A DNA stretch of 63,842 nucleotides, filler included, from Collodictyon triciliatum (taxonomy: Eukaryota), in NCBI GenBank assembly GCA_043381765.1. It is 6 parts of 6 records of this genome, joined end to end, with 100 filler letters (N's around TTAATTAATTAA, not from the genome) between each part and the next. Parts side by side here need not be neighbours in the genome. Positions count along the whole stretch, not along the records: positions 1 to 16,512 come from JBHJMP010001542.1; 5 more parts are not named here. The stretch is one strand, 5' to 3'. Made by a program: the position numbers and the translations under genes. Numbering within the stretch: the first letter of the stretch is position 1; the number at the start of each line of letters is the position of its first letter. Positions 118 to 19,610 of the stretch are shown one piece after another. The notes under the pieces are model-generated. The model was not told the origin of the DNA. It worked only from the letters and a program-made list of their open reading frames with translations, and ran no database searches.

Positions 118-118
118 A

Positions 119-1655: not shown

Positions 1656-4600
1656 AACTGTTGAAATACAAACAAAATGCATATCTATTATATCATGATA
1701 TTGTATTATACGCAGCTAAATTTCTTCAAATATAATATACATCATAAATTCCATAATTGTATCCATATGAAGAATATTCGTAATCAACTTTGTCATCATT
1801 CCCTCTATTTTCCACAAATGTATGTTGCTGATATTGCGAACACTCACCCCACTTTTAAATTTTGTCAAAACTCCGAACATGGATTGATTAATCACAAACA
1901 AATAAACCACATACATCACTTGACTCCGGAGATGGCGAAGCTCGTGTTGGAAGCAGACCAAGCCCTCCTCGTCCCGGATTCGCCTATTTCTTCCGCCTCA
2001 AGCTTACAATCACTGACTAAAGAATAAAAGAAAAAGGAACGAACACTTTTATTTTATGCAAAGAAACACTGTTTCACCCCAGAGCGTGCATCTTTATGTG
2101 TTGTTTTGAAACATATTGTATGAGAAGCATCTTTCATTTCGGCCATTTGATGTCAGCAATCTGGTTTTTAAAATCGCTTTTCAAATTATTAAACTCCTGT
2201 GCTCTTCCATTAAAAAGATTCCGTTTGATTAGGGTCTTAGGCTGGCGGTCTTTCCTCAGGGTCACGGGAGAAATAAATATTAACAATATTGATATACCAA
2301 CAGCAGCGAAAGAAAAAAAATCAGAAGTATTATTTTAACTTCAGGACGTGCAAAAGGTTCACATTTTTTATCCATGAAGTAAAATATTTAGTTTTTGTGT
2401 TCAGGTTGAAATCAATCTCTCAAATATCTCATGTGCACGAGCAGCATTATCCAAGCATTCTCATTTTCAAAGGTTTTTATTTATTAATTAACTATCATGT
2501 GAAGGAAAAGATTATTCTTTCATGATTATTTTTTAGAAACAAAATCTTCACCAAAGAAACATATGTCACATTTTTATGATATAGCTCACTTGAGACGGTA
2601 TTCCTGCGTATCAAACATCCATGATAGTAATTATTGATTCACACGCAGCCATTTTTCTCGAATAATAGTATCTGAAATATTTATGAAGATGGTAAAGGTA
2701 TTTGCATTAAAATTATTTGATTTTGAATAAACTATCATTTTCGATTTCAAGAACACTTTTTGCGCCGATTGTGTAATTTTTTATTATAATGGTTTATAAA
2801 TAAAAATTGATGTGGTGTAATATTCCACCAGAATCTTGGTTGATAAAAGCGAGAAAACTTTGGCCAGATGTCAAATCAAGAAAGCCAGCATTAGCTTTAC
2901 GCCTACTCGCATACTATATCTCGATTTCCTTTGATTTTTTACCGACTATTAGCAACTTTCAAATGTCTAGGTTTATCAAGATAAGCCTCATCTAAAATTT
3001 TTGTAATTCAAATCATAAAAACTTTTTATCAGTGGTATAATGCATCATACTTCTCTTTTTAAAAAAATCATTCTTAAAATTCACACCTAAAGTTTTTCAT
3101 AGATTATGATGCCTTCATCATTATGCTGTGGGTTTATAAATTGTCCCTTTTCTTCAATCATTCTTGACTGTACGATAGGTATTGCAAGTTTCGTTATTCG
3201 AACCGATAATCATGAATATTCTTTATTGTTCGATATGCAATTTTTTCTAGCCATCGAATTCATTTTCTATTTTAGAATAATTCATATGGTTCTTCATTAT
3301 TACAAATTACTGCTGATTAAATGGACATAGTAATTCATTTAACCTATTTCATATTTTATGTTGAAACTCTACGGAAGTTTGTAAGCCCATCATGAGCGTG
3401 GAGAGCTTAGGTACAATCAAAATTCCTTTATTTCTCCTCAATGAAGCATCTTGAGCGGTTAGGCAGAAGATATTTTGGAGCACTGATGATATTTTTATTC
3501 GTTTTTGGGTGATTGCATTTTTTTTTGAAAATTATGGTGTAATTTTTTTATGCGATCGTATAATTAAGCTTAGTTATACCATCACCGTTGCTCACGATTC
3601 CGAAGCAAAAAAATACAAAAGAACAATTGCATCAGTTTCTTGGACATCTGCGCTATACTCACTTATCCATGGAACATCAAATCTCTTCGAAACGGAACCC
3701 ACCGGTTATAATTCCCTCAATTTACCAACAATATCTTTTAAAAAATCATCCTCCTTTTCCATACTTTGATATAATGATACATTTTATTGAGACGATATCA
3801 GGGTTTTATTATGCTCTCTCTTCATTATTAGATTTCGTGGATTTATTGTGTAACTCTGACAATTATAAGGTAAGGAAACAACGATATTCTTGTACCTCAA
3901 AAATTAAAAATAATCGATAGGTAAAAGTGTTGAATTCTTTCTATTTGAAATGGTGACTTAAGCAATTTATCTTGTGTCTTTTTTCGAATGATATATTAGC
4001 TAAACCGTATTTGATTTGCTTTTTCCGTTTTTTCACATGCGATAAATATGAACTTAATTAATTTAATTTCATATAATTTTTCATCAGATTAGATATAAAT
4101 ATTTCGATAAAATGAAGCGCTTATTTCATTTTGTAATCTATCTGGATAGAAGCGGTTAATATATTGATTGGAATAAATTATAAAATTTTCACACAATAAT
4201 GATCCATATGAATTTACATATCTTTATTGATTTTATTTGAATAGAATAATTCTAGGCTTTTCAGAGTATCATCTTATCTTTGGAATTTAGTGTAAGGTAA
4301 ATGCAAACGACTTAATTTGGTTATTTTGTAATATTATGAGTAAATGAATGATTATTCGCATTATTCCAAAATTTTAAAATGGTTTATAGGAACTTTTATG
4401 TAGAATTGACGAATTTAAGTTGAATTACACCGATTTAAAAGGCTTCATGTTTTACATCTTATTTATATTTATTTTTAAATCACAACTTGTCATAATTAAA
4501 TCGGGTTACTGAAAAGATTTATCATCTTTTCCATTTTTGGTGATGTAGAAAAAGAAAAATGAAATTAAGGGAAATTTTGATTATATACTTGTCAAACTCA

Positions 4601-5340
4601 CGTAGCATATTTTTAACCCAAAGATTAAAATTCAATCTTTAAATACTATTAAATTTTAGATAGATTTTCTAGTGCAAATTAGTGTAATATTCGGTTCTTT
4701 ATTTGACATAAATTTCAACTTCTATTTAAACTATAGATTCTATTTATTTTAACTAAAATTACAGACATGATTAATATACTAAAAATGAGGATTGATTAAG
4801 ACAAAACCAAAATGTTCAGCATTATTAAAAATTGAAATAAAATATGACTTTATTTTCTAGAATATCAACACAATTTTCTAATACATTTTATGATACTTAT
4901 GTGCGAAATTATAAAATCTATCGAAATTTACATCTTAAAAAAGCTGTAAAAAGAGAAATATTCTTAAAAACTACACTTCACAATTATCATTTATAAAATA
5001 TTTTTAGTCAAATGATATTATACCATGCAACTAAGATATGTTAGTTTATAAAATTGTGCCTTGGCTTTTTTTTCCATACTCTCATACACATTATGCTATC
5101 ATGTTATATGAATATTTCTGTTACACTTAGAAATAGTGATAAAACTTCGAATTATAATTGAATTTCTGTTCAAAATTAGTCGATCAAAAATTCAAAATAA
5201 CGGAAATACGATTACATATCAGTTACTATCAAATAGCAATCACAATATTCGAATTAATTAGAAAACAGAAGGCCGAAAATTACAAGAAAATATTGGATGA
5301 ATTAAGAGAGGTATAAGATGCTGATTATTGAAAAAATCTG

Positions 5341-8300
5341 ATGAATTATAATACGTCAATAGGCTCTACACCAATGAGGAAAAGTCCACAACTTCAGCAA
5401 ATAATACTGGGTAAGCCCTTTTCATTTCTAATCATTCTCTTTTCTATTATAACAAATACTTTATTAGCAATCACCATCCTTGGATACATTTCGTGTTCTT
5501 CTGCGCAAGTTTATTCGATTTACACTGTCGGAACGGGCCATACAAGTACTGTGTGGAGTGTTGCTGTTACTCCTGATGGTTCAAAAATTGTTTCAGGGAG
5601 TTCTGATAAAACAATAAAAATTTGGAATTTTTCAGATGGAGATTTGGTTCGCACATTGACTGGTCATACTAGTACTGTTATGAGTGTTACTATCACTCCT
5701 GATGGTTCAAAAATTGTTTCTGGAAGTAGTGGTAGCTCAATTATAATATGGAATCTATCTGATGGAGATTTGGTTCGCACACTGACTGGTCATACTAGTA
5801 CTGTTTGGAGTGTTGTTGTTACTCCTGATGGCTCAAAAATTGTTTCGGGAGGCGCTTGGCCAGATCAAACGATCAAAATTTGGAATCTTTCAGATGGAGC
5901 TTTGATTCGCACATTGACTGGTCACATTGATTCTGTTCGTAGTGTTACTATCACTCCTGATGGTTCAAAAATTGTCTCTGGAAGTGTTGATAGAACAATA
6001 AAAATTTGGAATCTTTCTGATGGAGCTTTGATTCGCACTTTGTCTGGTCATTATAGCACAGTTTGTGGAATTAATGTAACTCCCGATGGCTCAAAAATTG
6101 TTTCTGGAAGTGATGACCGAACAGTAAGACTTTGGAGTTTTAATGATGGAAGTCCTGTTTACTCAAGAGGTTCCAGGATTATGAGTGTTCTTACTTTTGA
6201 TCCGAAGTCGATTTTTATTTCAGCACATTCAGACAACATCATTAGAATATGGAATCTGTTAAATGGAAATCTAATCAGGTCATTGATTGGACACAATAAT
6301 GTCGTCAACGCGCTGACTTTAACAGCAGATGGCTCCAAAGTAATTTCTGGAAGTTCAGACAAAACAATAAAAGTATGGAATGTTGACGACGGGTCTTTGA
6401 TTCAATCATTTGAAATTCATACTGAAGCAGTTAACTCGGTTACTTTGACAGCGGGTGAAACTAGTGTTATATCCGGAAGTAGCGATAAAACAATAAAAAT
6501 TACCAACATATCTGATGGAAGATTAATTAGAACATTAAGTGGACACACTGGAATAGTAACGAGTGTTGCTTTTAATCCTGACAGCTCAAAAATTGTGTCT
6601 GGAAGTGCTGACAAAACCATCAAAGTTTGGAGTTTTTTTGACGGAACATTAGTTCAAGATATAAAATTTCACACTGATTCTGTAAATTCTGTTGCTATAA
6701 ACATAGATGGAAGAAAAATTGTTTCTGCAAGCAGCGATAAAACAATCAAAATAACAAGCATTTTAGATGGAACTCTAATTCGCACACTCAATGGGCACAC
6801 TGGGATTGTGAGAACAGTCTCTATTTTTACGGATGGCTCTAAAATTATTTCTGGAGGCAGTGATAATACAATTAGAATTTGGAATTTTTCAAATGGAGTG
6901 ACTATACATATTCTGAGTGAACATGGAGGTCCAGTAAATGGAATATCAGTTCTCTCAGATGGCACGAAATTTTTGTCAGGAAGCGATGACACAACAATCA
7001 AAATGTGGAGCTTTCCTGATTTCAGCTTGATTTTGACAGTTTCAGGCCACTCAAGTTCAGTGAATAGCGTTGCTTTGAGCCAAGATAAAACAAAAATTGT
7101 ATCAGGAGGCAGTGATAACACAATTAGAATCTGGAATTATGCTGATGGTTCTCAAGCGCTTTCAATAAATGCCCACACGAATTCTGTGAATAGTATAGTT
7201 GTTTCGGCTGATGGAACAAAAATCGTGTCAGGAAGCAGTGATAGCACAATAAAAATGTGGAATTTCTCGGATGGTTTATTATTGAAAACCTTTAATGGAC
7301 ATACTTCAGCTGTTCGAAGCGTTGCAATATCATCAGATAATTCTGTTATAGTATCAGGAAGTGATGATACAAATATAAATGTTTGGAGAGTTTTAGATGG
7401 TATTTTAACTCGTACCTTATCAGGACATACAAAAGGAGTGAATTCTGTTTTTATCATTCCTGACAATACCAAAATTATATCAGGCAGTGCTGATTTTTCA
7501 ATAAAAATATGGAATTTATCAGATGGAACATTACTCAGGACCATAACTGGTCATGGAAATGCTGTCAGATGTGTGATTACCTCTCTAGATGGAACAAGAA
7601 TCATATCTGGAAGCAGCGATAACACAATCAAAATTTGGAATATATCAGATGGCACTTTAATTAGAACAATAACAGGACACTCAAACTCAGTAAATAGCGT
7701 TTCAGTATCAACTGATGGAACAAAATTATATTCTGGGAGCAGTGATAAATCAGTCAAAATTTGGACACTGTCAGACGGTAGAGTAATTCGAACACTTCTG
7801 AGTCACACCGGTTCCGTCAATAGCGTTTTAGCTACCACTGATTCAAATATAATTTCAGCAAGCACTGATAAATTTATCAAACTCTGGAGTCCATGCCAAG
7901 GAGGATACTTTTTCAACCAACAATCAAATACATGCGAAAAATGTCCAATTGGCTCTTACAACAACGGAAATGAACTCACCTCTTGTTTATTATGTCCAAC
8001 TGGAACTTATAATCCATCGACTGGCTCAACGAGTCTTAGAGATTGCCTCCCATGTGAGGAAGGAACATACAATAATTTTGTGGGTCAATCAATTTGCAAG
8101 AAATGCGAGGCTGGAACATTTAATAATCTAAAAGGTCAAATTACATGTAGTAATTGCACTGCTGGATTTTACAGCAATTCAGGAGACAAGTCTTGTGTTC
8201 CGTGCCCTGCAGGAACATTCAATCCAACCATCAGAGGTGCTGGAAATTCTTCATGTCTTTTATGCGAACCAGGAACATACAACAGCGTCGATGGAAAGTC

Positions 8301-11300
8301 AAGCTGCTTCGATTGTCCTGTTGGGTTTTTTATGAATGAGAAAGGAAAGCAATTTTGTAATCCATGTCCGACTGGAACTTACTCAAACAAAACAAAATCA
8401 ATCACCTGTGAAAAATGCCCGGCTGGTTCATTCAATCAAAATGTTGCATCAAACAGTATCAACAACTGCCTACCGTGTCCTAAAGGAAGATTTTCATCAA
8501 AAACAGGCGAATCAACTTGTGAACTTTGTCAGCCTGGCTCATACAATCCACATAGTGGTCAACACTCGTGCATCAATTGTACAGATGGCACTTATAATCC
8601 AAAGTTTGGTTCAACAAGCAACTTCTCATGTATTAATTGTCCACAAGGCACTTTTGGAAACAGTAACAGAGACGATTGCATATCATGTCCAGCTGGAAAA
8701 TTCAACGATAAAATTGGCTCATTCAATGAATCATTATGCATTTCATGTCCGAATGGGAGTTACAGCTCAGATAGAAGCGCATCGTGTAGTTTATGCTTAT
8801 CAGGATTCTATCAAAAAGAAGGAATCGATAAAGACTCGAAATCGTGCTACGCATGTCCAAAAGGCACATTCAACTCAAACTCCGGCTCATATAGCAACAA
8901 ATCATGCATTGAATGTCCACAAGGGACTTGGAATGACAGAGATGGTCAAGCATCATGCACTTCGTGTCCAGCTGGTACATTCAACGATAAAATTGGCTCA
9001 TTCGATCAATCATCATGCATTTCATGTCCAGATGGAAGTTACAGCTCGGTTGGAAGCGCTTCATGCAGCTTATGTTCATCAGGATTCTATCAAAAAGAAG
9101 ATATCACAAAAGACTCGAAATCATGTTATGCTTGTTCAAAAGGCACATTCAACTCAAACTCCGGCTCATATGGAAAAAAATCATGTATTGAATGTCCACA
9201 AGGTACTTGGAATGATAGAGACGGTCAAGCATCATGCACATCATGTCCCGCTGGCACATTCAACAACAAAACTGGCTCATTCAATCAATTATCATGCATT
9301 TCATGTCCAAATGGAAGCTACAGCTCAGTTGGAAGCGCTTCATGCAGCTTATGCTCATCAGGATTCTATCAAAAAGAAAATATCACAAAAGACTCGAAAT
9401 CATGCTATGCTTGTCCGAAAGGCACATTCAACTCAATATCTGGCTCATATGGAAACGAATCATGTAATGAATGTCCACAAGGTACTTGGAATGATAGAGA
9501 TGGTCAAGCATCATGCACATCATGTCCCACTGGTACATTCAACAGTAAAACTGGCTCGTTCAATCAATCATCATGTATTTCATGTCCAAATGGAAGCTAC
9601 AGCTCAGTTGGAAGTTCATCGTGCAGTCTATGCTCATCAGGGTTCTATCAAAAAGAAAATATCACAAAAGACTCTAAATCATGCTATGCTTGTCCGAAAG
9701 GTAGATTCAACTCAAACTCCGGCTCATATGGCAACAAATCATGCATTGAATGTCCACAGGGTACATGGAACGATAAAGATGGTCAAGCATCATGCACATC
9801 ATGTCCCGCTGGCACATTCAACAACAAAACTGGCTCATATAATCAATCATCATGTATTTTATGTTCAAACGGAAGCTGCAGCTCAGAAAGAAGCGCATCA
9901 TGCACTTCATGTTCACCAGGATTCTATCAAATAGAAGGAATCATAAAAGACTCAAGCTCATGCTATGCTTGTCCGAAAGGCACATTCAACTCAAACTCCG
10001 GCTCATATGGCAACAAATCATGCATCGAATGTCCACAAGGTACTTGGAATGATAGAGACGGTCAAGCATCATGCACATCGTGTCCAGCTGGCACATTCAA
10101 CGACAAAACTGGCTCATTCAATCAATCATCATGTATTCCATGTCCCAATGGAAGCTACAGCTCAGAAAGAAGCGCATCATGCAGCTTATGCCCGACAGGA
10201 TTCTATCAAAAAGAAGAAATCACAAAAGACTCGAAATCATGTTATGCTTGTTCAAAAGGCACATTCAACTCAAAATCCGGCTCATATGGAAATGCATCAT
10301 GTATTGAATGTCCACAAGGTACTTGGAATGATAGAGACGGTCAAGCATCATGCACATCATGTCTCGCTGGCACATTCAATAACAAAACCGGCTCATTCAA
10401 TCAATCATCATGCATTTCATGTCCCAATGGAAGCTACAGCCCAGAAAGAAGCTCATCATGCAGCTCTTGCTCATCAGGATTCTATCAAAAAGAAAATATC
10501 ACAAAAGACTCGGAATCATGCTACACTTGTCTAAAAGGCACATTCAACTCAATATCCGGCTCATATGGAAACATATCATGTATTCAATGTCCACAAGGTA
10601 CTTGGAATGATAGAGATGGTCAAGCATCATGCACATCATGTCCCGCTGGTACATTCAACAACAAAAGTGGCTCATATAATCAATCATCATGCATTTCATG
10701 TCAAAATGGAAGCTACAGCTCAGAGAGAAGTGCATCGTGCATTTTGTGCTCACCAGGATTCTATCAAAAAGAAAATATCACAAAAGACTCAGAATCATGC
10801 TACGCTTGTTCAAAAGGCACATTCAACACAAACTCCGGCTCATATGGCAACCAATCATGTATTGAATGTCCACAAGGTACTTGGAATGATAAAAACGGTC
10901 AAGCATCGTGTACATCATGTCCAGCTGGTACATTCAACAATAAAACTGACTCATTTAATCAATCATCATGTATTTCATGTCCAAATGGAAGCTACAGCTC
11001 AGAAAGAAGCGCATCATGCAGCTTATGTTCATTAGGATTCTATCAAAAAGAAAATATCACAAAAGACTCGAAATCATGCTATGCCTGTTCAAAAGGCACA
11101 TTCAACTCAAACTCCGGCTCATATGAAAACATATCATGTATTGAATGTCCACAGGGTACATGGAACGATAAAGAGGGTCAAGCATCATGCACATCATGTC
11201 CAGCTGGTACATATAATAACAATACTGGCTCATACAATGTATCATTATCATGTATTTCATGTCCAAACGGAAGCTACTGCTCAGCTGGAAGCGCATCATG

Positions 11301-14300
11301 CACTTCATGTTCACCAGGATTCTATCAAAAAGAAGGAATCATAAAAGACTCAAGCTCATGCCATGCTTGTCCAAAAGGCACATTCAACTCAAACTCCGGC
11401 TCATATGGCAACAAATCATGCATCGAATGTCCACAAGGTACTTGGAATTATAGAGACGGTCAAGCATCATGCACATCATGTCCAGCTGGCACATTCAACA
11501 ACAAAACTGGTTCATATAATCAATCATCATGTATTCCATGTCCAAATGGAAGCTACAACTCAGAAAGAAGCGCATCATGCAGCTTATGCCCGACAGGATT
11601 CTATCAAAAAGAAGAAATCACAAAAGACTCGAAATCATGTTATGCATGTCCAAAAGGCGCATTCAACTCAATATCCGGCTCATATGGAAACGAATCATGT
11701 ATTGAATGTCCACAAGGTACTTGGAATTATAGAGACGGTCAAGCATCATGCACATCATGTCCCGCTGGTACATTCAATAACAAAACCGGCTCATTCAATC
11801 AATCATCATGCATTTCATGTCCGAATGGGAGCTACAGCCCAGAAAGAAGCTCATCATGCAGCTCTTGCTCATCAGGATTCTATCAAAAAGAAAATATCAC
11901 AAAAGACTCGGAATCATGCTATGCTTGTCCGAAAGGCACATTCAACTCAAACTCCGGCTCATATGGCAACAAATCATGCATCGAATGTCCACAAGGCACT
12001 TGGAATGATAGAGATGGTCAAGCGTCATGCTCATCATGTCCAGCTGGTACAATGAACAACAGAGCTGGCTCATTTAACCAATCATCATGTATTTCATGTC
12101 CAAATGGAAGCTACAGCTCAGAAAGAAGCTCATCGTGCATCTCATGCTTATCTGGATTCTATCAAAAAGAAAATATCACAAAAGACTCAAAATCATGCTA
12201 TGCCTGTTCAATAGGAACATTCAACTCAAACTCCGGCTCATATGGAAACAAATCATGTATTGAATGTCCACAAGGTACTTGGAATGATAGAGACGGTCAA
12301 GCATCATGCACATCATGTCCAGCTGGTACATACAATAACAAAACTGGCTCATTTGACCAATCATCATGTATTTCATGTCCAAATGGAAGCTTTAGCTCAG
12401 AGAGGACCCCATCATGCAGTCTATGCTTATCAGGCTTCTATCAAAAAGAGAAAGTTATTAAAGATTCAAAATCATGCTATGCTTGTCCAAAAGGCACATT
12501 CAACTCGAAATCCGGCTCATATGGAAATATATCATGCGTCGAATGTCCACAAGGTACTTGGAACGATAGAGATGGTCAAGCATCATGCACATCATGTCCA
12601 GCTGGAACATTTAATAACAAAACCGGGTCATTTAATGAATTATCATGCATATCATGCTCAAATGGAAGCTACAGCTCAGAAAGAAGTCCTTCATGCAATT
12701 CGTGCCCCACACGCTCAACCACAACTAAAGAAGGCTCAGATTCAATCGATGAATGTAGGTGTTTATATTCATACATAGCGTCAAACGGTGTGTGCACATG
12801 TCCTCCAGGACAATTCGAAGATGGCAATAGATGTGTTTCCTGTAGAATCGGCTCGTACAAATCAACAAATGACACAAATTTCTGCTTCTCTTGTGGTGAT
12901 AAATTTACGACAAAAAATAATGGCTCGATGAACTCAACAGATTGCGAATGTAAAGCTGGATTTGAATTAAGAAACTCCACTTGTGAATGCAAACCTGGAT
13001 GGTACGAAAAACAGAAAGAATGTTATCAATGTTTTAAGGGTACTTACAATGAAAATTATGGACAAACACTGTGCAAAGAATGCCCAATAAATTCATTTAC
13101 AAATATGACAGGCTCTAAATCTGTTGAAGATTGCAAGTGTATTTCAAACACATACCTCGACTCAAAGACCAAGTTTTGTAATTCTTGTCCAACAGGCTTT
13201 TTATGTGATGGAAGTCGTCAGCCGGCTGTTGCACCAGGCTATTGGCAAGCTCAAACTTCAAATGGAGAATACATAGCTTACAAATGTTTGAATGAAAAGG
13301 CGTGCAATGGAGGAAATGCTTCATGCGCTGATGGATATACTGGAGCTTTGTGCAGCATTTGCCATAATGGTTATGGAAAAATTGGATATTCATGTGTAGA
13401 ATGTCCATCTGAAGGAATTAATATTGCCTTAATTTTTTTGAGTATCATTTTCCCGCTCGCTTTTGTTTTATTCATGATAGAGCAATCAAGACAGACAAGA
13501 ACAGGAAATATTCAAATTCTTAAATCCCTTTCCACTCATTTCCAAGTTTTGTCATATTTGGCTAACTTTGACGCGAATTGGAGTACAATTATAATTTCAG
13601 CTATGAAAATCCCAGCCCTGTTTTCATTTTCACTTTCAATAGACAGCTATCCGATAGAATGTCAATTCAAAATATCTATCTATGGACAAGTTTTACTAAC
13701 CATGCTAAGTCCGGTTATATTTACTGGTCTGATGGTATTATTCGTCTTCATTAAAGAGTTGTGGATCTACAAAAAGGAAACTTCAAGAGATGTTTTAACA
13801 TTTACCCATTTTCGGGACGAAATCATGTACTCCATGTTGGTTATGCTATTTTTTGTCCATCCCTCAATCACATCGAGCATTTCTGAAATATTTCCATGTG
13901 AAAAACTTGGAGATATGAGTTATTTGAAGGCAGACATGTCTATATTATGTGATGATAGCTCATACAAAATGTGGAGGGATATTTCTTTCGCATTTTTAAT
14001 TTCTTATTGTATTGGCGGGCCCCTGCTGATTTTGGTTAGAATTGTTAGAAAAAGAACAGCCTTGAGTAATCCTACTTCAAAAACATACGCTCTCTTAAGG
14101 TTTTTAGTCGATGGATATACTGAAAAGTGCCAATACTGGGAAGTTGTAATGATGATGCAAAAGTTGGTCATTGTGATGATAAGCACGTTCTTTCCTGCTT
14201 CGCTGCAAATATACTTTGGCTTGTGGCTGCTGTTTTTGATGATTGCTTCGACCATTTATTTCAGGCCATTTATATCCAACGTGCTGAAAAAGTCACAATT

Positions 14301-14625
14301 GCAATCACTTATGGTGCTCTATTTCACGTTGATGCTGAGTTTACTGTTTCGATACAGCAATTTGAATCAAAGAACAGAAGTTGTGCTGGTGCTATTGGTT
14401 GTTATTCTGAATGGAGGGATAGGAATTGTTTTCCTGTCAAAGGCCGGACCTGTTGTACTGAGATTGGCTTTGAAAGAATTGATATACACGTTCAATTATA
14501 TTTGGAGCTTGGTAACAGATAATTACATTTCACAATTTATTGAAAGAAAAGTAATGGGAGCTAAAACACCAAAAGATCTAGAGATGCATGATATATTTCA
14601 GTTGGAAGCTCTTCAATATTCTTAG
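5341..14625 (+). CDS. Giant intronless surface protein: signal peptide, 19 WD40 repeats, Cys-rich (GCC2/GCC3, ephrin-receptor-like) stalk, C-terminal multi-pass TM domain
   Basis: Uninterrupted 3094-aa ORF. Hydrophobic segment at aa ~26-55. GHxxxVxSVxxTPDGSKIVSGSxDxTIKIWN repeats at ~5536-7890. CPxGT(F/Y)N repeats at ~7890-13400. About 7-8 hydrophobic helices at ~13410-14450 with the motifs HFQV, YLKADMSILCD and DGY..KCQYWEVVMM.QKL, typical of the protist Cys-rich/TRP-C-like multi-TM family. Confidence 0.92.
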   Translation: MNYNTSIGSTPMRKSPQLQQIILGKPFSFLIILFSIITNTLLAITILGYISCSSAQVYSIYTVGTGHTSTVWSVAVTPDGSKIVSGSSDKTIKIWNFSDGDLVRTLTGHTSTVMSVTITPDGSKIVSGSSGSSIIIWNLSDGDLVRTLTGHTSTVWSVVVTPDGSKIVSGGAWPDQTIKIWNLSDGALIRTLTGHIDSVRSVTITPDGSKIVSGSVDRTIKIWNLSDGALIRTLSGHYSTVCGINVTPDGSKIVSGSDDRTVRLWSFNDGSPVYSRGSRIMSVLTFDPKSIFISAHSDNIIRIWNLLNGNLIRSLIGHNNVVNALTLTADGSKVISGSSDKTIKVWNVDDGSLIQSFEIHTEAVNSVTLTAGETSVISGSSDKTIKITNISDGRLIRTLSGHTGIVTSVAFNPDSSKIVSGSADKTIKVWSFFDGTLVQDIKFHTDSVNSVAINIDGRKIVSASSDKTIKITSILDGTLIRTLNGHTGIVRTVSIFTDGSKIISGGSDNTIRIWNFSNGVTIHILSEHGGPVNGISVLSDGTKFLSGSDDTTIKMWSFPDFSLILTVSGHSSSVNSVALSQDKTKIVSGGSDNTIRIWNYADGSQALSINAHTNSVNSIVVSADGTKIVSGSSDSTIKMWNFSDGLLLKTFNGHTSAVRSVAISSDNSVIVSGSDDTNINVWRVLDGILTRTLSGHTKGVNSVFIIPDNTKIISGSADFSIKIWNLSDGTLLRTITGHGNAVRCVITSLDGTRIISGSSDNTIKIWNISDGTLIRTITGHSNSVNSVSVSTDGTKLYSGSSDKSVKIWTLSDGRVIRTLLSHTGSVNSVLATTDSNIISASTDKFIKLWSPCQGGYFFNQQSNTCEKCPIGSYNNGNELTSCLLCPTGTYNPSTGSTSLRDCLPCEEGTYNNFVGQSICKKCEAGTFNNLKGQITCSNCTAGFYSNSGDKSCVPCPAGTFNPTIRGAGNSSCLLCEPGTYNSVDGKSSCFDCPVGFFMNEKGKQFCNPCPTGTYSNKTKSITCEKCPAGSFNQNVASNSINNCLPCPKGRFSSKTGESTCELCQPGSYNPHSGQHSCINCTDGTYNPKFGSTSNFSCINCPQGTFGNSNRDDCISCPAGKFNDKIGSFNESLCISCPNGSYSSDRSASCSLCLSGFYQKEGIDKDSKSCYACPKGTFNSNSGSYSNKSCIECPQGTWNDRDGQASCTSCPAGTFNDKIGSFDQSSCISCPDGSYSSVGSASCSLCSSGFYQKEDITKDSKSCYACSKGTFNSNSGSYGKKSCIECPQGTWNDRDGQASCTSCPAGTFNNKTGSFNQLSCISCPNGSYSSVGSASCSLCSSGFYQKENITKDSKSCYACPKGTFNSISGSYGNESCNECPQGTWNDRDGQASCTSCPTGTFNSKTGSFNQSSCISCPNGSYSSVGSSSCSLCSSGFYQKENITKDSKSCYACPKGRFNSNSGSYGNKSCIECPQGTWNDKDGQASCTSCPAGTFNNKTGSYNQSSCILCSNGSCSSERSASCTSCSPGFYQIEGIIKDSSSCYACPKGTFNSNSGSYGNKSCIECPQGTWNDRDGQASCTSCPAGTFNDKTGSFNQSSCIPCPNGSYSSERSASCSLCPTGFYQKEEITKDSKSCYACSKGTFNSKSGSYGNASCIECPQGTWNDRDGQASCTSCLAGTFNNKTGSFNQSSCISCPNGSYSPERSSSCSSCSSGFYQKENITKDSESCYTCLKGTFNSISGSYGNISCIQCPQGTWNDRDGQASCTSCPAGTFNNKSGSYNQSSCISCQNGSYSSERSASCILCSPGFYQKENITKDSESCYACSKGTFNTNSGSYGNQSCIECPQGTWNDKNGQASCTSCPAGTFNNKTDSFNQSSCISCPNGSYSSERSASCSLCSLGFYQKENITKDSKSCYACSKGTFNSNSGSYENISCIECPQGTWNDKEGQASCTSCPAGTYNNNTGSYNVSLSCISCPNGSYCSAGSASCTSCSPGFYQKEGIIKDSSSCHACPKGTFNSNSGSYGNKSCIECPQGTWNYRDGQASCTSCPAGTFNNKTGSYNQSSCIPCPNGSYNSERSASCSLCPTGFYQKEEITKDSKSCYACPKGAFNSISGSYGNESCIECPQGTWNYRDGQASCTSCPAGTFNNKTGSFNQSSCISCPNGSYSPERSSSCSSCSSGFYQKENITKDSESCYACPKGTFNSNSGSYGNKSCIECPQGTWNDRDGQASCSSCPAGTMNNRAGSFNQSSCISCPNGSYSSERSSSCISCLSGFYQKENITKDSKSCYACSIGTFNSNSGSYGNKSCIECPQGTWNDRDGQASCTSCPAGTYNNKTGSFDQSSCISCPNGSFSSERTPSCSLCLSGFYQKEKVIKDSKSCYACPKGTFNSKSGSYGNISCVECPQGTWNDRDGQASCTSCPAGTFNNKTGSFNELSCISCSNGSYSSERSPSCNSCPTRSTTTKEGSDSIDECRCLYSYIASNGVCTCPPGQFEDGNRCVSCRIGSYKSTNDTNFCFSCGDKFTTKNNGSMNSTDCECKAGFELRNSTCECKPGWYEKQKECYQCFKGTYNENYGQTLCKECPINSFTNMTGSKSVEDCKCISNTYLDSKTKFCNSCPTGFLCDGSRQPAVAPGYWQAQTSNGEYIAYKCLNEKACNGGNASCADGYTGALCSICHNGYGKIGYSCVECPSEGINIALIFLSIIFPLAFVLFMIEQSRQTRTGNIQILKSLSTHFQVLSYLANFDANWSTIIISAMKIPALFSFSLSIDSYPIECQFKISIYGQVLLTMLSPVIFTGLMVLFVFIKELWIYKKETSRDVLTFTHFRDEIMYSMLVMLFFVHPSITSSISEIFPCEKLGDMSYLKADMSILCDDSSYKMWRDISFAFLISYCIGGPLLILVRIVRKRTALSNPTSKTYALLRFLVDGYTEKCQYWEVVMMMQKLVIVMISTFFPASLQIYFGLWLLFLMIASTIYFRPFISNVLKKSQLQSLMVLYFTLMLSLLFRYSNLNQRTEVVLVLLVVILNGGIGIVFLSKAGPVVLRLALKELIYTFNYIWSLVTDNYISQFIERKVMGAKTPKDLEMHDIFQLEALQYS
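5536..7890 (+). repeat. 19 coding WD40 repeats (~126 bp each); the first five are close DNA-level copies
   Basis: TCAAAAATTGT recurs at 5581, 5707, 5833, 5965 and 6091 (126 bp period, one 6 bp insertion). I counted 19 repeat-ending WN/WS/WR/WT/TN/TS motifs. Confidence 0.9.
8686..12705 (+). repeat. 279-bp (93-aa) coding tandem repeat, 14 full units plus a partial unit
   Basis: The QGTWN motif recurs at 8926, 9205, 9484, 9763, 10042, 10321, 10600, 10879, 11158, 11440, 11719, 11998, 12277 and 12556 (279 bp period, one 3 bp insertion). Confidence 0.97.
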
Positions 14626-14782
14626 TTAAATTTTTTATCAACACTTCTAATCTCATCCATTTTTTACAATCAATTGAGATGATAGGCTTAATACCCATTA
14701 TGAAGTCTACATATTTCGAACCTAACCCAAAACCACTGTCATCACGCTCAAACTGAAAGGAAGAATAAAATTATAAAGTATA

Positions 14783-16512
14783 TTTTTTTTTATCATGACC
14801 GCCGCTGTTTCAATCCGAAGATTTTGGGTTCATACGGAACCTACTCTTAATAATAAAATATTAGCGAGAAAAAATAAAAAGATAAAGCGACAGTCAAAAT
14901 AAACTACCATTTGTTCTTTTTTCAAAAAATACTGAAAGAGAATAAAAGTAAGGAAACCGCCTTCGCCTATGGGACAAAAATGAGCTGTGGACGAGGCATT
15001 GGAAAACCTCGGATTGTGTGATTGGAGTTTTCGTGTTTTGGGTGGAAAGAAAAAGAAAAAAATAGAAAGGAGAGAAAGTGTTCTCACACACAGACTATTC
15101 TACCCGAGGTGAATCTGCTCCAACGCGATTTCTGGTTGTATTCGGGACTGACAGAAGAGCTGATAAATTTGTCGGGTCGATGAAAGTACGCACATTGTAG
15201 TTCTCAAGCCGATTCTGACGAGTCCTTTCAACCATCTATATCGGACAAGATTTACATCCATTTCATTCCACTGGATGAGTCTTTTGAGGGGACAACGGTT
15301 CACTTTCCTTGTGTTTCTTGCTGGGCGACTCAGACAAAAAGCGATACATCGTTGTTTGTCTGGCATTATCGGAAGTGGCGCTTGACCGTCCCCTGGTTTC
15401 GGAAACATGCGTAGCCGGCAGTGGACTTTGCTTAGCCGGAGTATGGCTACGCGTTTGTGGATTTAGAAACATACGCTCCTGCTTGCTCGGACTGTCTTTG
15501 GTGTGTGAAGTTCCAAGCTTGGATTCGACTTGTGCTGTTTGTTCATGCTCTTTGGTTCTCGGTGCGACGGGCTGGGGCAGGGTAAACGGACTATCTATGG
15601 TGGGCGCTGGTTCTTGTGTTGCCTTCGCTTTGGAATATCATTTCGGATAAGTAACGAAGACTGCCTTGAGGCCTCCTATATTACCCATATTCACGTCAGT
15701 CTGAACAGGTAGTTTAAGGGGGGATTTCTTTCGGGGTTTGGAGATGCGCTGCTCTTGGGTCTTGCGATGTGCGGGCTTGTCCGGTGTTGGCGGTGGAGGG
15801 CTCGAGTGTGGGTATTCTGAAGAGGAACCGATTTTTTTTATTCTTCCTTTCAACTTTTGTGCAGGACCGAGGGTCTGAAGAGGAACCGAGATTTCCTTCC
15901 ATGTCATCGTCGCTGTCGCTGTATGCGCTTATCTGCTTGGCAGGTGTATTTTTTTGCGGAGCTTTTACTTGTCGTTCGTTCTTTGTAACTGGCGGACGCT
16001 CTTTGAGGATGCGCTTTGGACACTTTTTGCCCATGACCGTAAACTTTGCAGGGAGCTGGTTCTTGTGACAAAGAAGCTTCACCGCGGCCGTGTCTGTGAA
16101 GAAGCCTTTGTCCTTTTTGATGTCCACGTGGGCCGGTCTGAACGGCTTCAGCTCTTCACGAAGGAGTTGCAGCCACACGTCCAGCGGTAATTGGTAGAGC
16201 ATCGCCGAGGTCTCTGTTGGTTTACTTCTGCTGAAGATGTTCAAAATATCGCTCAAACTTACCTGCTTCAGTTCCAGAAGCTTTCGGGCGTTTTCTGCAG
16301 TGCGGAAGACAGTCATGCAAAGGCTTTCGCTGTCTGGTAAGTGCAATTGGATGGACTCTTCCCAAAGTTTGTTCGCTTTCAAGAAGGAGACGAGCGCATC
16401 TGTGAGTCTGCGGTCTTGTTCTTGTTGTAGACGACGTGCTCGACCCTGTGCAAAAATACTGTCCGATCAGACAGACTTTCAGGCGGCTTCCTTGCACGGG
16501 TCTTCCTGGACT
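14783..16512 (-). mobile_element. Degenerate ORF1p-like non-LTR element (right copy, runs off the contig end)
   Basis: Inverted homolog of 119-1655. ORF 15714-16382 plus upstream SDRTVFLHRVEH resembles RRM strand 1. On the minus strand the sequence continues past the shared region and ends in GGCGGTCATGAT-A9 (14783-14791), a possible poly(A) tail. Confidence 0.6.
15816..15889 (-). mobile_element. 42-bp poly(A)-tailed insertion with 16-bp target-site duplication
   Basis: TCTGAAGAGGAACCGA occurs at 15816-15831 and 15874-15889. The insert reads CCCTCGGTCCTGCACAAAAGTTGAAAGGAAGAATAAAAAAAA on the minus strand. The left copy (~740-755) has the empty site with a single copy of the 16-mer. Confidence 0.85.
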
Positions 16513-16612
16513 NNNNNNNNNNNNNNNNNNNNNNNNNNNNNNNNNNNNNNNNNNNNTTAATTAATTAANNNNNNNNNNNNNNNNNNNNNNNNNNNNNNNN
16601 NNNNNNNNNNNN
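16513..16612. other. Artificial contig linker (N44-TTAATTAATTAA-N44)
   Basis: 100 bp spacer with a six-frame stop core. Identical spacers occur at 33106-33205, 49683-49782, 58787-58886 and 62199-62298. Confidence 0.97.
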
Positions 16613-16849
16613 AAAAAAAAAAAAAAAGAAAAAAAAAAAAAAAATAAAAAAAAAGGGGGGGGGGGGGGGGGGGGAGGCATAGTCATTATAATTGTCATCC
16701 AATTGAATAAAGGAAGAGCTAACTAGCCTACGTCAAAATCACCCAACTACCACATGTTGAAAAGAATTTATGATAAAATAACAATGGTTAAATAAGAAAA
16801 GCGAAATTCCAGATGCTACTTAAAATTCAAATGATTATTATTTTCTGTG

Positions 16850-18865: not shown

Positions 18866-19005
18866 GACCTACACAACAAAGATGTATGTCAGATATGCCT
18901 AATTCTAATTTGTATACAGAATCATTCCGGCCCAGATATATGTTGAAGTAAGACGACTAGAACGAATCATCAAAGAGAATGATACATTTTTTTATAGCTG
19001 TTTCT

Positions 19006-19067
<62 letters not shown>

Positions 19068-19420
19068 TCATATATCAAGCTTAGATAAGACAGAAAATAA
19101 AAATCGGTGTGTATACCCCGTTGTTTGGCGCCAAACCAACCGGATAGTACGTAACTCCAGGGTGAGCTGTAGCCTGGGGTGCTGCTGACAAGATATTTGG
19201 ATGTATATTTCAGACGTTGATCATAGAAATGGGAAAGTATGACAAGGAGCGAGGTGAAAAGATTTCAAAAGTTGGCTGGATAAAAAAATGCTTTGTTCGT
19301 TTTCTTTCTATTGAATGATGGTTACATAGGAGTATTTTTTTTCTAATTTATGCAACTATTGTGAGACACTCACGCTGTTGTCCGCCTTCCATGCGCCGAT
19401 CCCTTGTTTTGCGTGACAAG

Positions 19421-19610
19421 GGTCTAAATTACAAGAGGTCTAAATTACAAGAGGTCTAAATTACAAGAGGAAGAAAATGAAAGGGAAAGAGAGAAAGAGA
19501 GAAAGAGAGAAAGAGAGAAAGAGAGAAAGAGAGAAAGAGAGAAAGAGAGAAAGAGAGAAAGAGAGAAAGAGAGAAAGAGAGAAAGAGAGAAAGAGAAAGA
19601 AAAAGAGAGA
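19421..19610. repeat. 16-bp unit (GGTCTAAATTACAAGA) x3 followed by a (GAAAGAGA)n microsatellite
   Basis: Visible directly in the intergenic region between the divergent M16 peptidase and PSD genes. Confidence 0.9.

What the first reader, a model, noticed from the sequence alone, without database searches (positions are those of the whole stretch)
5341..14625. Giant surface receptor with an apparently extracellular WD40 sensor on a ~1800-aa Cys-rich stalk and a multi-TM base
Seen: one 3094-aa ORF ordered signal-like hydrophobic segment (…SCSSA/QVY) > 19 WD40 > Cys-rich repeats > ~7-8 TM helices, with no TM segment between the WD40s and the Cys-rich stalk. Known: WD40 propellers are overwhelmingly cytosolic. 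This repeat consensus (GH..V.SV..TPDGSKIVSGS.D.TIKIW) is the type found in fungal HET-E/HNWD NLRs and bacterial STAND proteins. The Cys-rich + multi-TM chassis is a widespread protist family that usually carries other N-terminal domains. Inference: an NLR-style recognition module has been grafted onto an adhesion-GPCR/TRP-like surface chassis, making a candidate non-self, prey or pathogen receptor.
Basis: partly seen in the sequence, partly recalled or inferred. Interest (0 to 1): 0.8.

Follow-up and report, generated by a model that had tools for sequence, protein, structure and literature searches.

The report
Membrane giant with outward-facing WD40 head
One unbroken 3094-residue gene of an unidentified AT-rich eukaryote puts a WD40 propeller array, a fold that normally works inside cells, at the outer tip of a long cysteine-rich stalk on a nine-helix membrane base, a widespread protist receptor-like chassis that otherwise carries other heads.

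Summary
Window 5341..14625 (+) is one open frame of 3094 codons. In order it has an N-terminal hydrophobic segment, 19 WD40 repeats, about 42 Ephrin_rec_like cysteine modules (including 15 near-identical 93-aa units), a DUF7630-like module, nine predicted membrane helices and a short tail.

No membrane segment separates the WD40s from the stalk, so both lie on the same side. Disulfide pattern, sequon excess, charge distribution and the family's topology all place that side outside the cell or in a lumen.

The base is neither a GPCR nor a classical TRP channel. It belongs to a very large eukaryotic family (7626 representatives) with interchangeable heads, including RCC1, PQQ and FG-GAP propellers. 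It is distantly tied to Pfam PF06011 (fungal Pkd2/Flc) and matches the published description of apicomplexan CRMP contact sensors.

None of 302 related proteins and 69 metagenome loci examined joins WD40 to this chassis.

The most likely role is a contact or adhesion sensor. A non-self or prey receptor role is untested. There is no expression evidence, and the host genome is not available.

The parts
5341..14625 (+). Whole gene: single uninterrupted ORF, 3094 aa plus TAG stop
5341..5502 (+). N-terminal targeting region (aa 1-54). It has a positively charged n-region (R13, K14, K25) and a 24-residue hydrophobic core at aa 27-50 (nt 5419-5490). A small-residue site SSA/QVY follows. It is either a cleavable signal peptide or an uncleaved type II signal anchor.
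   Evidence: Heuristic only: no SignalP or DeepTMHMM was available.
5512..7887 (+). WD40 array, 19 repeats (aa 58-849). Mean pairwise repeat identity is 0.47; repeats 1-4 are 0.74-0.81 identical to their neighbours.
5551..6162 (+). First five WD40 blades (aa 71-274). They are modelled as a module set apart by a low-confidence break, and are not matched as a closed 7-bladed propeller.
6169..7041 (+). Second WD40 module (aa 277-567): complete 7-bladed propeller
   Evidence: Z 45.6, rmsd 1.2 A, 284 aligned to 7bie_A; also 3ow8_A
7045..7899 (+). Third WD40 module (aa 569-853): complete 7-bladed propeller, running directly into the first cysteine module
   Evidence: Z 46.4, rmsd 0.9 A, 278 aligned to 7big_A; WDR5 Z 43
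7894..13134 (+). Cysteine-rich stalk (aa 852-2598): about 42 Ephrin_rec_like / TNFR-like modules. It holds 205 Cys in aa 851-2690 and 66 N-x-S/T sequons against 39.8 expected.
8677..12864 (+). Tandem array inside the stalk: 15 units of 93-94 aa (279 nt). Among the 13 units of exactly 93 aa, mean identity is 84% aa, all 10 Cys are kept in every unit, and dN/dS is 0.21.
13282..13404 (+). Juxtamembrane EGF-like module with a sub-threshold match to Pfam DUF7630. It is beta-stranded in the model.
13411..14448 (+). Nine-helix membrane domain (aa 2691-3036). The conserved outside-loop cysteines are C174, C253 and C270 of the 494-aa segment.
14449..14622 (+). C-terminal helical tail, 58 aa with 6 K+R; inferred to be cytosolic

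Best explanation
The gene encodes a giant multi-pass membrane glycoprotein of the 'variable head, Ephrin_rec_like stalk, DUF7630, nine-helix core' family. In this copy the ligand-binding head is a WD40 array of five blades plus two 7-bladed propellers.

Inferred path: the N-terminal hydrophobic segment takes the chain into the ER. The WD40s and the roughly 1750-residue disulfide-rich, glycosylated stalk then face the outside of the cell (or the lumen of a compartment), and the short C-terminal tail faces the cytosol.

Most likely function (inferred): a contact or adhesion sensor. The propellers bind a particle, cell-surface or matrix ligand far from the membrane. Binding or pulling is passed down the stiff stalk to the nine-helix core. 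The core then signals by ion (Ca2+) flux, as reported for fission-yeast Pkd2, or by triggering exocytosis or uptake, as proposed for apicomplexan CRMPs.

Shown here: the architecture, the same-side placement of head and stalk, family membership of the base, and purifying selection. Inferred: the orientation, the location at the cell surface, the ligand and the signalling step.
For: Architecture and integrity.

Same side: there is no hydrophobic segment between aa 48 and aa 2695, and the last WD40 ends 3 residues before the first Cys module.

Outside or lumen orientation:
- The stalk has 205 Cys in a strictly kept pattern, 130 of 130 cells.
- The stalk profile matches only extracellular modules in the PDB: Mst1 mastigoneme protein, Eph receptors, TNFRs.
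- Stalk sequons number 66 against 39.8 expected.
- K/R residues precede the N-terminal hydrophobic core.
- In the nine-helix model the K/R-rich loops alternate correctly. Loop 304-332 has 5 K+R and the tail has 6. The outside loops carry the conserved C174, C253 and C270.
- Relatives start with signal-peptide-like N-termini.
- Fission-yeast Pkd2 (PF06011) is described with a signal peptide, an extracellular N-domain, nine helices and a cytoplasmic tail (passages).
- CRMPs are described as N-terminus out, C-terminus in (passages).
- The loop after strand C reads W-N-x-S in 7 of 16 scored repeats, against 43 of 1317 in 97 WD40-only homologues, and no repeat keeps the W-D dipeptide. Binomial P is 3.7e-7; P is 4.0e-5 for 5 of 13, an approximation to about 5 of 14 once repeats 1-4 are collapsed.

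Family of the base:
- 7626 representatives at E<=1e-3. The best full-length hit, P0005, has E 4.2e-68 and 33% identity.
- Heads among 27 relatives are TIG, Filamin, FG-GAP, RCC1, PQQ, DOMON, Big_5, Sushi and LRR.
- PF06011 hits 3 of 27 and 5 of 59 relatives.

All three parts share one codon usage, with RSCU r of 0.69-0.80.

Purifying selection acts on the head and the stalk.
Against: - No topology predictor and no experiment: orientation rests on heuristics and analogy.
- No transcript or protein evidence.
- The source genome is not held, so paralogues could not be counted.
- The gene sits on a contig piece of at most 16.5 kb with no identifiable neighbour. That piece is joined to the other pieces only by artificial linkers.
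- Its GC3 (0.24-0.38) and codon preferences differ from the intron-split genes on the other pieces (GC3 0.447, r 0.31-0.46). Provenance from the same organism is therefore assumed, not shown.
- PF06011 does not hit the query itself.
- Homology to CRMPs was not tested.
- The sequon excess over the WD region as a whole is nil (10 observed, 12 expected). The position-specific excess is partly inflated by recent repeat duplication.
- The cysteine content of the WD region is not unusual: 46 of 97 homologues are as low or lower.
- A surface location rather than an internal compartment is not addressed by any result.
Confidence: 0.55

Rival explanations
1. Structural or adhesive coat protein. The stalk and head form part of a glycocalyx, scale, hair or attachment fibre. 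The nine-helix domain serves only as an anchor, with no signalling.
For: The stalk profile's best solved match is the Chlamydomonas mastigoneme protein Mst1, an extracellular filament protein (E 2.2e-14). The tandem, recently homogenised 93-aa units suggest selection on length. The cytosolic tail is only 58 aa with no recognisable signalling domain.
Against: A single-pass or GPI anchor would be enough for a coat protein. Yet the nine-helix core is the most conserved part of the family across 7626 representatives, with invariant residues in helices and loops. The two described families that resemble it are a reported stretch-activated Ca2+-permeable protein and exocytosis-triggering sensors.
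Confidence: 0.22
2. One reading: an NLR-style, fast-diversifying recognition module exposed on the surface as a non-self, prey or pathogen receptor.
For: The repeats are of the STAND/HET-E type. Repeats 1-4 are recent duplicates, 74-81% aa and 77-82% nt identical, as in unstable WD arrays. The head is outward-facing by inference. No other protein with this head on this chassis was found.
Against: There is no NTPase or other NLR part. dN/dS among repeats is below 1: 0.3 overall and 0.32-0.61 for repeats 1, 2 and 4. Variable positions are spread over the repeat and not confined to the top-face loops. No paralogue family could be examined. No ligand is known.
Confidence: 0.2
3. The same protein, but resident in an internal compartment (ER, Golgi, vacuole or phagosome) with the head in the lumen, like several fungal PF06011 proteins.
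For: S. pombe Pkd2 is reported at both the ER and the plasma membrane (abstracts of PMC11333956 and 10.1101/2022.09.20.508804). The topology evidence does not distinguish a lumen from the outside.
Against: A stalk of about 42 modules makes more sense for reaching away from a cell surface. A Thecamonas relative is annotated as a cell-surface receptor, but that is a name only. CRMPs act at the plasma membrane.
Confidence: 0.15
4. Artefact or dead gene: an assembly chimera of a WD40 gene and a chassis gene, or an unexpressed recent fusion.
For: No expression evidence. The protein is absent from the 5.8-billion-cluster collection. The contig is short and joined to others by artificial linkers. The combination is unique so far.
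Against: The frame is open for 9282 nt in AT-rich DNA (log10 P = -91.7). The junction falls exactly at a domain boundary, in frame. One codon usage runs across all three parts. Purifying selection acts within both repeat arrays. The signal-like segment sits directly before the WD40s, as expected for a head on this chassis.
Confidence: 0.07
5. Inverted topology: the WD40s and the stalk are cytosolic.
For: Eukaryotic WD40 domains are, from general knowledge, almost always cytosolic or nuclear. No predictor was run.
Against: This would place about 205 patterned cysteines and 66 sequons in the cytosol. It would contradict the positive-inside pattern at both ends and the topology described for Pkd2 and CRMPs.
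Confidence: 0.03

Closest known systems
Unnamed eukaryotic family 'variable head, Ephrin_rec_like, DUF7630, nine-helix C-terminal domain'. Examples are Thecamonas trahens XP_013760241.1 ('cell surface receptor IPT/TIG domain-containing protein', P0020) and Rigifila ramosa and Mantamonas plastica transcripts (P0005, P0006, P0008, P0009).
   Same: The C-terminal 494 aa are homologous: E 4.2e-68 to P0005 and 7626 representatives at E<=1e-3. The module order before the membrane is the same. Signal-peptide-like N-termini are shared. Heads are modular, and 7 of 27 scanned relatives carry propeller-type repeats (RCC1, PQQ, FG-GAP).
   Different: None of the 152 C-terminal-domain relatives examined has WD40. 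Here the head is purely WD40 with no TIG or Filamin spacer. The stalk is unusually long (about 42 modules), with 15 recently homogenised 93-aa units.
Apicomplexan and ciliate CRMPs (cysteine repeat modular proteins; TgCRMPa/b, PfCRMP1-4)
   Same: From passages of PMC9670195 and PMC9815656: a signal peptide; variable adhesive heads (MAR, Kringle, lectin); Ephrin-receptor-like and EGF-like cysteine modules; a conserved core of two EGF-like domains plus nine TM helices; N-terminus outside and C-terminus cytosolic; a proposed contact-sensor role in triggering rhoptry exocytosis. Dictyostelium homologues with a similar nine-helix core are mentioned.
   Different: CRMP heads are not WD40. CRMPs act as heterodimers with partner proteins, and nothing is known about that here.
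Fungal PF06011 'TRP-like' proteins (S. pombe Pkd2, Trp663, Trp1322; S. cerevisiae Flc1-3)
   Same: A signal peptide, an extracellular N-terminal domain, nine predicted TM helices and a cytoplasmic tail. PF06011 hits relatives of the window's core: P0009 at 38.8 bits, P0015 at 42.0 and P0021 at 28.5, against a cut-off of 28.5, and 5 of 59 members. Stretch-activated Ca2+ permeability is reported for Pkd2 (abstract of PMC9727806).
   Different: PF06011 does not hit the window protein itself, even at E<=10. The fungal head is a small Ig-like or ML-like domain, with no cysteine-rich stalk and no propeller.
Plant CRINKLY4 receptor kinases (ACR4, PpCR4)
   Same: The ectodomain is an N-terminal seven-bladed propeller, called WD40 by the authors, followed by a TNFR-like cysteine-rich domain (abstract of bioRxiv 10.1101/2020.08.10.245050). 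This is the nearest described example of a propeller on a cysteine-rich module outside a eukaryotic cell.
   Different: It is a single-pass kinase receptor with one propeller, one CRD, and no multi-pass core. No sequence relationship was tested.
Bacterial and fungal consensus-type WD40 arrays (cyanobacterial nSTAND1, caspase or CHAT proteins; fungal HET-E-like NLRs; PDB 2ymu)
   Same: 31-53% identity to the window's repeats. The model superposes on 2ymu over two propellers, 560 residues aligned at 42% identity. Several of the WD40-only hits (sources unnamed, presumed bacterial) begin with signal-peptide-like N-termini, for example P0247, P0188, P0227, P0244 and P0278, plus the named Pirellulales protein P0281.
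   Different: Those proteins carry NTPase, caspase, kinase or cytochrome modules and no Ephrin_rec_like stalk or nine-helix core. None is close enough to indicate recent transfer: the best 80 bacterial loci are at most 49% identical.

Membership tests
Variable head / Ephrin_rec_like / DUF7630 / nine-helix core family (unnamed) | Homologous C-terminal multi-helix domain | tested here: met
   phmmer over 1.84 billion representatives found 7626 hits at E<=1e-3 and 108 at E<=1e-30. P0005 aligns to query residues 1-424 of 494 at E 4.2e-68. The alignment keeps C253, C270 and P376 invariant.
Variable head / Ephrin_rec_like / DUF7630 / nine-helix core family (unnamed) | Ephrin_rec_like modules followed by a DUF7630 module directly before the first helix | tested here: met
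   Ephrin_rec_like gives 42 stretches. DUF7630 matches at the right place but below Pfam's cut-off: 21.1 and 23.4 bits against 27. DUF7630 is found in 27 of 59 aligned members.
Variable head / Ephrin_rec_like / DUF7630 / nine-helix core family (unnamed) | N-terminal signal peptide with the head outside | tested here: inconclusive
   A hydrophobic core at aa 27-50 with K/R before it and an SSA/Q site after it. Its length of 24 residues fits a signal anchor as well as a signal peptide. No predictor was available.
Pfam PF06011 TRP (fungal Pkd2 / Flc) | Match to the PF06011 profile at or above the gathering score | tested here: not met
   No PF06011 hit on the C-terminal 494 aa even at E<=10. Only relatives hit it: 3 of 27 and 5 of 59.
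Pfam PF06011 TRP (fungal Pkd2 / Flc) | Nine TM helices, N-terminus outside, C-terminus cytosolic | tested here: met
   The AF2 model has nine membrane-length helices. The charge distribution fits N-out, C-in.
CRMP (cysteine repeat modular proteins) | Sequence or structural homology of the 'conserved core' (two EGF-like domains plus nine TM helices) | not tested
The resemblance rests on the papers' descriptions.
Adhesion GPCR | Seven-helix GPCR fold | tested here: inconclusive
   The model has nine helices. GPCR chains appear only among weak Foldseek rows (E 0.07-0.3, TM-score 0.12-0.21), and nothing stands out in the VIA search (best Z 7.8).
Adhesion GPCR | GAIN/GPS autoproteolysis domain before the first helix | tested here: not met
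   A Pfam scan of aa 2501-2720 and aa 2601-3094 at E<=10 lists only Ephrin_rec_like, DUF7630, hEGF and cEGF.
Classical TRP / polycystin channels (six-helix, PF00520 / PF08016) | Ion_trans or PKD_channel profile match, and a six-helix channel fold | tested here: not met
   No such Pfam hit at E<=10. No such chain stood out in the fold searches, which on their own are inconclusive.
STAND / NLR proteins with WD40 sensors (HET-E, HNWD, nSTAND1) | NACHT, NB-ARC or another STAND NTPase domain N-terminal to the repeats | tested here: not met
   Only 57 residues precede the first WD40 repeat, and they are the targeting segment. The 25 of 47 matched Pfam families that were listed include no NTPase family.
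STAND / NLR proteins with WD40 sensors (HET-E, HNWD, nSTAND1) | Consensus-type, internally similar WD40 repeats | tested here: met
   38-53% identity to HET-E-like, nSTAND1 and caspase WD arrays. Internal repeat identity averages 0.47 and reaches 0.81.

The most novel reading that the evidence does not exclude
A eukaryote has moved the STAND/NLR-type WD40 sensor, an unstable and easily re-amplified repeat array normally used for intracellular non-self recognition, to the outside of the cell. There it sits on a stalk that may reach about 100 nm and is wired to a nine-helix CRMP/Pkd2-like core. Recognition of prey, pathogen or kin at a distance would then be converted directly into Ca2+ entry, exocytosis or engulfment. 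The five-blade N-terminal module, made of the youngest repeats, would be the evolving specificity determinant.
Probability: 0.2. Interest if true: 0.8.

Novelty: new variant of a known kind. Interest (0 to 1): 0.5.

Why it matters
Canonical WD40 propellers are textbook intracellular scaffolds in eukaryotes. A well-supported case of 19 of them displayed on the outer face of a membrane protein would extend where this fold is used, and would give a concrete protein for testing how it folds and is glycosylated in the secretory pathway.

The finding also draws attention to a very large, essentially undescribed eukaryotic receptor-like family (7626 sequence clusters). Its nine-helix core has no solved structure. 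Its only studied look-alikes are the CRMPs, needed for Toxoplasma invasion, and fungal Pkd2/Flc proteins.

Seeing that this chassis freely swaps heads, including four different propeller types, supports the idea that it is a general contact-sensing platform of protists. It also offers free-living organisms in which to study the mechanism.

Tried and rejected
- No whole genome is held for the window, so paralogues were not counted.
- Sequencing runs: no RNA holder was listed for nt 5341-8340, so expression could not be looked at and read laying was not used.
- The word-based search with the C-terminal region among 1701-5415-aa proteins gave only 2 weak hits. The exhaustive representative search replaced it.
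- Searches for the WD40 plus chassis combination all found none: 0 of 152, 0 of 120 of 793 hits, 0 of 30 shorter proteins and 0 of 69 metagenome loci. Only 150 of the 7626 family representatives were examined. No InterPro-style architecture query was possible. So the combination is 'not found', not 'absent'.
- Atlas look-alikes of aa 1-1100 were only WD40 clusters at scores of 0.86 or less. The first attempt failed on a length limit.
The single-protein scan of viral contigs found no relative, and the same query in metagenome contigs found none.
- Recent bacterial origin of the head: the best 80 of 591 bacterial loci are 31-49% identical, so there is no sign of recent transfer and the origin stays open.
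- Fold of the nine-helix core: no PDB match. The best Foldseek row has E 0.026 and TM-score 0.18. The best VIA Z is 7.8, within the noise for helical models. The PDB profile search matched only the cysteine-rich part.
- Cysteine depletion of the WD region as a sign of secretion is not distinctive.
- Whole-region sequon excess in the WD40s is absent: 10 against 12 expected.
- The first dN/dS run on stalk units was invalid because of a 1-residue register shift. It was redone on 13 in-register units.
- Flanking repeats that would mark a mobile element: none were found.
- Rfam and tRNA scans of the window found nothing.
- Literature: no paper in the held library was found describing WD40 on such a chassis. 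Searches found only CRINKLY4 and a cyanobacterial caspase review under 'extracellular WD40'. Searches by Pfam names and by the old name GCC2_GCC3 gave no description of the family, but led to the CRMP papers.
Full report
**1. The observation**

Window 5341..14625 (+) is the only long frame in the region. It translates without a stop into 3094 residues and ends in TAG. With the window's base composition (GC 0.382), log10 of the chance that 3094 codons lack a stop is -91.7. The 1 kb upstream is AT-rich and has no frame that could extend the protein.

Pfam finds Ephrin_rec_like in 42 stretches (E 3.5e-260), WD40 in 18 stretches (E 3.8e-149), and many propeller families that overlap the WD40s. Hydropathy shows one N-terminal segment (aa 20-47, peak 2.47), then nothing until aa 2695, then a cluster of segments up to aa 3044. 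Cysteines number 0-1 per 100 residues up to aa 800 and 10-13 per 100 from aa 900 to 2700.

A manual split gives 19 WD40 repeats at aa 58-849. The last ends in ...IKLW, and the first cysteine module starts 3 residues later. The one correction is the helix count.

**2. Anatomy**

*Head.* An AlphaFold2 model of aa 58-858 was built with 50 WD40 homologues as the alignment (pLDDT 88.1, pTM 0.48). It has confidence breaks after blade 5 and after blade 12.

- Model residues 220-510 and 512-796 each superpose on solved 7-bladed WD40 propellers (Z 43-46, rmsd 0.9-1.4 A).
- The two-propeller structure 2ymu covers both, with 560 residues aligned at 42% identity.
- The first five blades form a separate module. 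How it closes is not determined.
- Repeats 1-4 are the youngest: 74-81% identical to their neighbours at protein level and 77-82% over the 126/258-nt periods at DNA level.
- Mean identity over all 19 repeats is 0.47.

*Stalk.* It spans aa 852-2598 and holds 15 tandem units of 93-94 aa (nt 8677-12864). TRF reports 14.4 copies of 279 nt at 87% matches. Among the 13 units of exactly 93 aa, mean identity is 84%, all ten cysteines are kept in every unit (130 of 130 cells), and dN/dS is 0.21. If each roughly 45-residue module spans 2-3 nm, as recalled from TNFR and Eph structures and not computed here, the extended stalk would be of the order of 100 nm.

*Base.* The C-terminal 494 residues were modelled with 58 family members as the alignment (pLDDT 90.0, pTM 0.85). 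The model shows a beta-stranded juxtamembrane module (the DUF7630-like part), nine membrane-length helices, a beta-hairpin between helices 4 and 5, and a long C-terminal helix.

**3. Which side of the membrane**

No hydrophobic segment lies between the head and the stalk, so they are on the same side. This follows directly from the sequence. The evidence below says that side is exoplasmic. All of it is indirect.

- The stalk has 205 cysteines in a strictly conserved pattern.
- The family profile matches only extracellular modules among solved structures: Mst1 mastigoneme protein at E 2.2e-14, Eph receptors, TNFRs and thyroglobulin.
- The stalk has 66 N-x-S/T sequons against 39.8 expected from composition.
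- R13, K14 and K25 precede the N-terminal hydrophobic core, and no charge follows it for about 28 residues.
- In the base, loops assigned to the cytosol are K/R-rich (loop 304-332 has 5; the tail has 6). Loops assigned to the outside are K/R-poor and carry the near-invariant C174 and the invariant C253 and C270.
- Relatives begin with typical signal-peptide-like sequences.
- The two described families that resemble the base have this topology. Fission-yeast Pkd2 has a signal peptide, an extracellular N-domain, nine helices and a cytoplasmic tail, from an AlphaFold-based analysis. CRMPs have the N-terminus outside and the C-terminus in the cytosol.
- A new observation concerns the loop after strand C. 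The hallmark W-D dipeptide is absent from all 16 scored repeats, and 7 of them read W-N-x-S. The rate in 97 WD40-only homologues is 43 of 1317 repeats (3.3%), and 495 of those 1317 have W-D. Binomial P is 3.7e-7. Collapsing the recent duplicates r1-r4 leaves about 5 of 14; the calculation was run for 5 of 13 and gave P = 4.0e-5. This fits selection for a glycan at that loop.

Neutral or negative points:

- The WD region as a whole has no sequon excess: 10 observed, 12 expected.
- Its cysteine content is ordinary.
- The hydrophobic core is 24 residues long, so it may be an uncleaved signal anchor rather than a cleaved signal peptide. That would not change the orientation.
- No topology predictor was available.

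**4. What the base is**

An exhaustive phmmer search with the C-terminal 494 residues found 7626 cluster representatives at E<=1e-3, 2253 at E<=1e-10 and 108 at E<=1e-30.

- The best hit is a 293-aa fragment on a 1191-bp contig (P0004, 53% identity).
- The best full-length proteins are about 30-34% identical.
- Named sources of the best hits are Rigifila ramosa and Mantamonas plastica (CRuMs), Thecamonas trahens (annotated 'cell surface receptor IPT/TIG domain-containing protein') and Clastostelium recurvatum.
- An Aureococcus protein also has the stalk plus base.

Seven of the 27 carry propeller-type repeats: RCC1 in P0008, P0026 and P0027; PQQ in P0016 and P0032; FG-GAP in P0007 and P0017.

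PF06011 ('TRP', the fungal Pkd2/Flc family) hits 3 of those 27 and 5 of 59 aligned members, but it does not hit the window protein itself. Atlas look-alikes agree: the nearest clusters are DUF7630, TRP C-terminal and Ephrin_rec_like clusters, from eukaryotes and Nucleocytoviricota.

The model has no convincing solved counterpart. The best Foldseek row has E 0.026 and TM-score 0.18, and GPCR rows score 0.12-0.21. The best VIA Z is 7.8, within the noise for helical models. There is no GPS/GAIN, Ion_trans or PKD_channel hit.

The labels 'adhesion-GPCR-like' and 'TRP-like' are therefore analogies at most. I file the base as a member of the unnamed family, and only as a distant relative of PF06011.

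**5. Is the WD40 head on this chassis seen elsewhere?**

Not in what I could examine:

- 0 of 152 C-terminal-domain relatives.
- 0 of the 120 best of 793 hits to the junction region among 1701-5415-aa proteins. Each covers only the WD half or only the Cys half.
- 0 of 30 hits among shorter proteins.
- 0 of 69 metagenome loci.

The window's own protein is not in the 5.8-billion-cluster collection. These searches sample only 150 of 7626 family representatives and are biased toward repeat-rich proteins. The combination is 'not found', not proven unique.

*Origin of the head.* Bacterial arrays, mostly cyanobacterial, are 31-49% identical, and the best protein hits reach 53%. The named eukaryotic hits (Reticulomyxa, Stentor, Ceratobasidium, Flagelloscypha) are 38-44% identical. 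This shows no recent transfer, and the source remains open.

All three parts of the gene share one codon usage (RSCU r 0.69-0.80, GC3 0.24-0.38). That argues for a fusion that has had time to ameliorate, and against an assembly chimera.

**6. Selection**

WD repeats have mean dN 0.456 and dS 1.53 over 16 indel-free repeats. The youngest repeats have dN 0.14-0.18 and dS 0.30-0.43. Variable positions are spread over the repeat and are not restricted to the top-face loops.

This shows constraint on a working protein. It gives no sign of the diversifying selection known, from recall, for fungal HNWD repeats.

**7. Context and caveats**

The window is not one piece of chromosome. Linkers of 44 N, TTAATTAATTAA and 44 N at 16513-16612, 33106-33205, 49683-49782, 58787-58886 and 62199-62298 show that contigs were concatenated.

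- The gene lies on the first piece (1-16512). No other frame there has a Pfam match, even at E<=1.
- The other pieces carry intron-split housekeeping genes: Gpi1, PDEase_I, Met-tRNA synthetase, Ion_trans, Peptidase_M16 and PS decarboxylase.
- Those genes have higher GC3 (0.447) and different codon preferences (r 0.31-0.46).
- The assembly is thus an intron-rich, AT-rich eukaryote. That the giant single-exon gene belongs to the same organism is assumed, not shown.

**8. How it most likely works**

*Shown.* A modular multi-pass protein with a propeller head, a constrained stalk and a conserved nine-helix core.

*Inferred.* The head binds a ligand outside. The stalk presents it far from the membrane and transmits binding or pulling. 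The core signals.

Two studied look-alikes suggest what the signal could be. Pkd2 is reported to become Ca2+-permeable on membrane stretch (abstract of PMC9727806). CRMPs are proposed to sense host contact and trigger rhoptry exocytosis.

The main rival is a purely structural or adhesive coat or fibre protein. Its best support is the Mst1 match. The deep conservation of the core speaks against it.

It is neither supported nor excluded. I give it about 0.2.

**9. Novelty and score**

The chassis is a known kind in the sense of the CRMP and Pkd2/Flc look-alikes, and it is a huge but undescribed family. Searches of the held literature by domain names found no description of it.

Propellers on cysteine-rich ectodomains also have precedents: plant CRINKLY4, and the RCC1, PQQ and FG-GAP heads within this family.

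What is new is a canonical WD40 array as the outward-facing head. That makes this a new variant of a known kind.

Interest is moderate at 0.5. An outward-facing WD40 array is uncommon and testable. But it rests on one gene in one assembly, with no expression data and an inferred topology.

Noticed in passing
window 16513-16612, 33106-33205, 49683-49782, 58787-58886, 62199-62298: Each site is 44 N, then TTAATTAATTAA, then 44 N. This is an artificial all-frame-stop linker. The window is therefore a chain of at least six concatenated contigs, and gene order across these points says nothing about synteny.
   Followed up: yes
window 19845-20321 and 55415-55873: Two longer runs of N (477 and 459 bases), either gaps or masked stretches. 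The ORFs listed across them are not real.
   Followed up: no
window 17681-18115 (-), 24674-25084 (+), 28154-28810 (+), 37373-38317 (-), 48288-49362 (+), 52621-56933 (+): Exon-sized frames match Peptidase_M16, PS decarboxylase, Ion_trans, Gpi1 (3 pieces), PDEase_I (2 pieces) and Met-tRNA synthetase with a tRNA_bind domain (5 pieces). These are intron-split housekeeping genes. GC3 is 0.447, against 0.24-0.38 in the giant single-exon gene.
   Followed up: partly
window 57234-58712 (+) and 57309-58538 (-): A GC-rich stretch (0.507 for 56001-58000) has long open frames on both strands (493 and 410 aa) and no Pfam match. Its nature is unknown.
   Followed up: no
window 1-145; 16613-16675; 18987-19078; 19434-19633: A 29-nt tandem repeat sits at the very start of the window. 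Poly(A)/poly(G) runs sit at a contig start. There is also a long poly(T) tract and a (GAGAGAAA)n microsatellite.
   Followed up: no
P0178 (2044 aa) and P0218 (2023 aa), hits: These are metagenome or run-assembly proteins. They have an N-terminal WD40 array without a signal-like start and a C-terminal 4-6-helix region carrying Ion_trans (PF00520); P0178 also carries PKD_channel (PF08016). This is a different WD40-plus-channel fusion, presumably with cytosolic WD40s.
   Followed up: partly
P0247, P0188, P0227, P0244, P0201, P0207, P0180, P0278, P0280-P0283, P0288: Many long WD40 arrays begin with signal-peptide-like N-termini followed at once by the first repeat. Only P0281 is named (a Pirellulales cytochrome-domain protein); the others are presumably bacterial. 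Exported WD40 arrays may be common in bacteria.
   Followed up: partly
P0008, P0026, P0027 (RCC1); P0016, P0032 (PQQ); P0007, P0017 (FG-GAP): Relatives of the chassis, those with named sources being from Rigifila ramosa, carry three other propeller types as heads. RCC1 is another fold usually regarded as intracellular.
   Followed up: partly
window 26035-27357 (+): A 441-aa open frame with no Pfam match at E<=1e-5.
   Followed up: no
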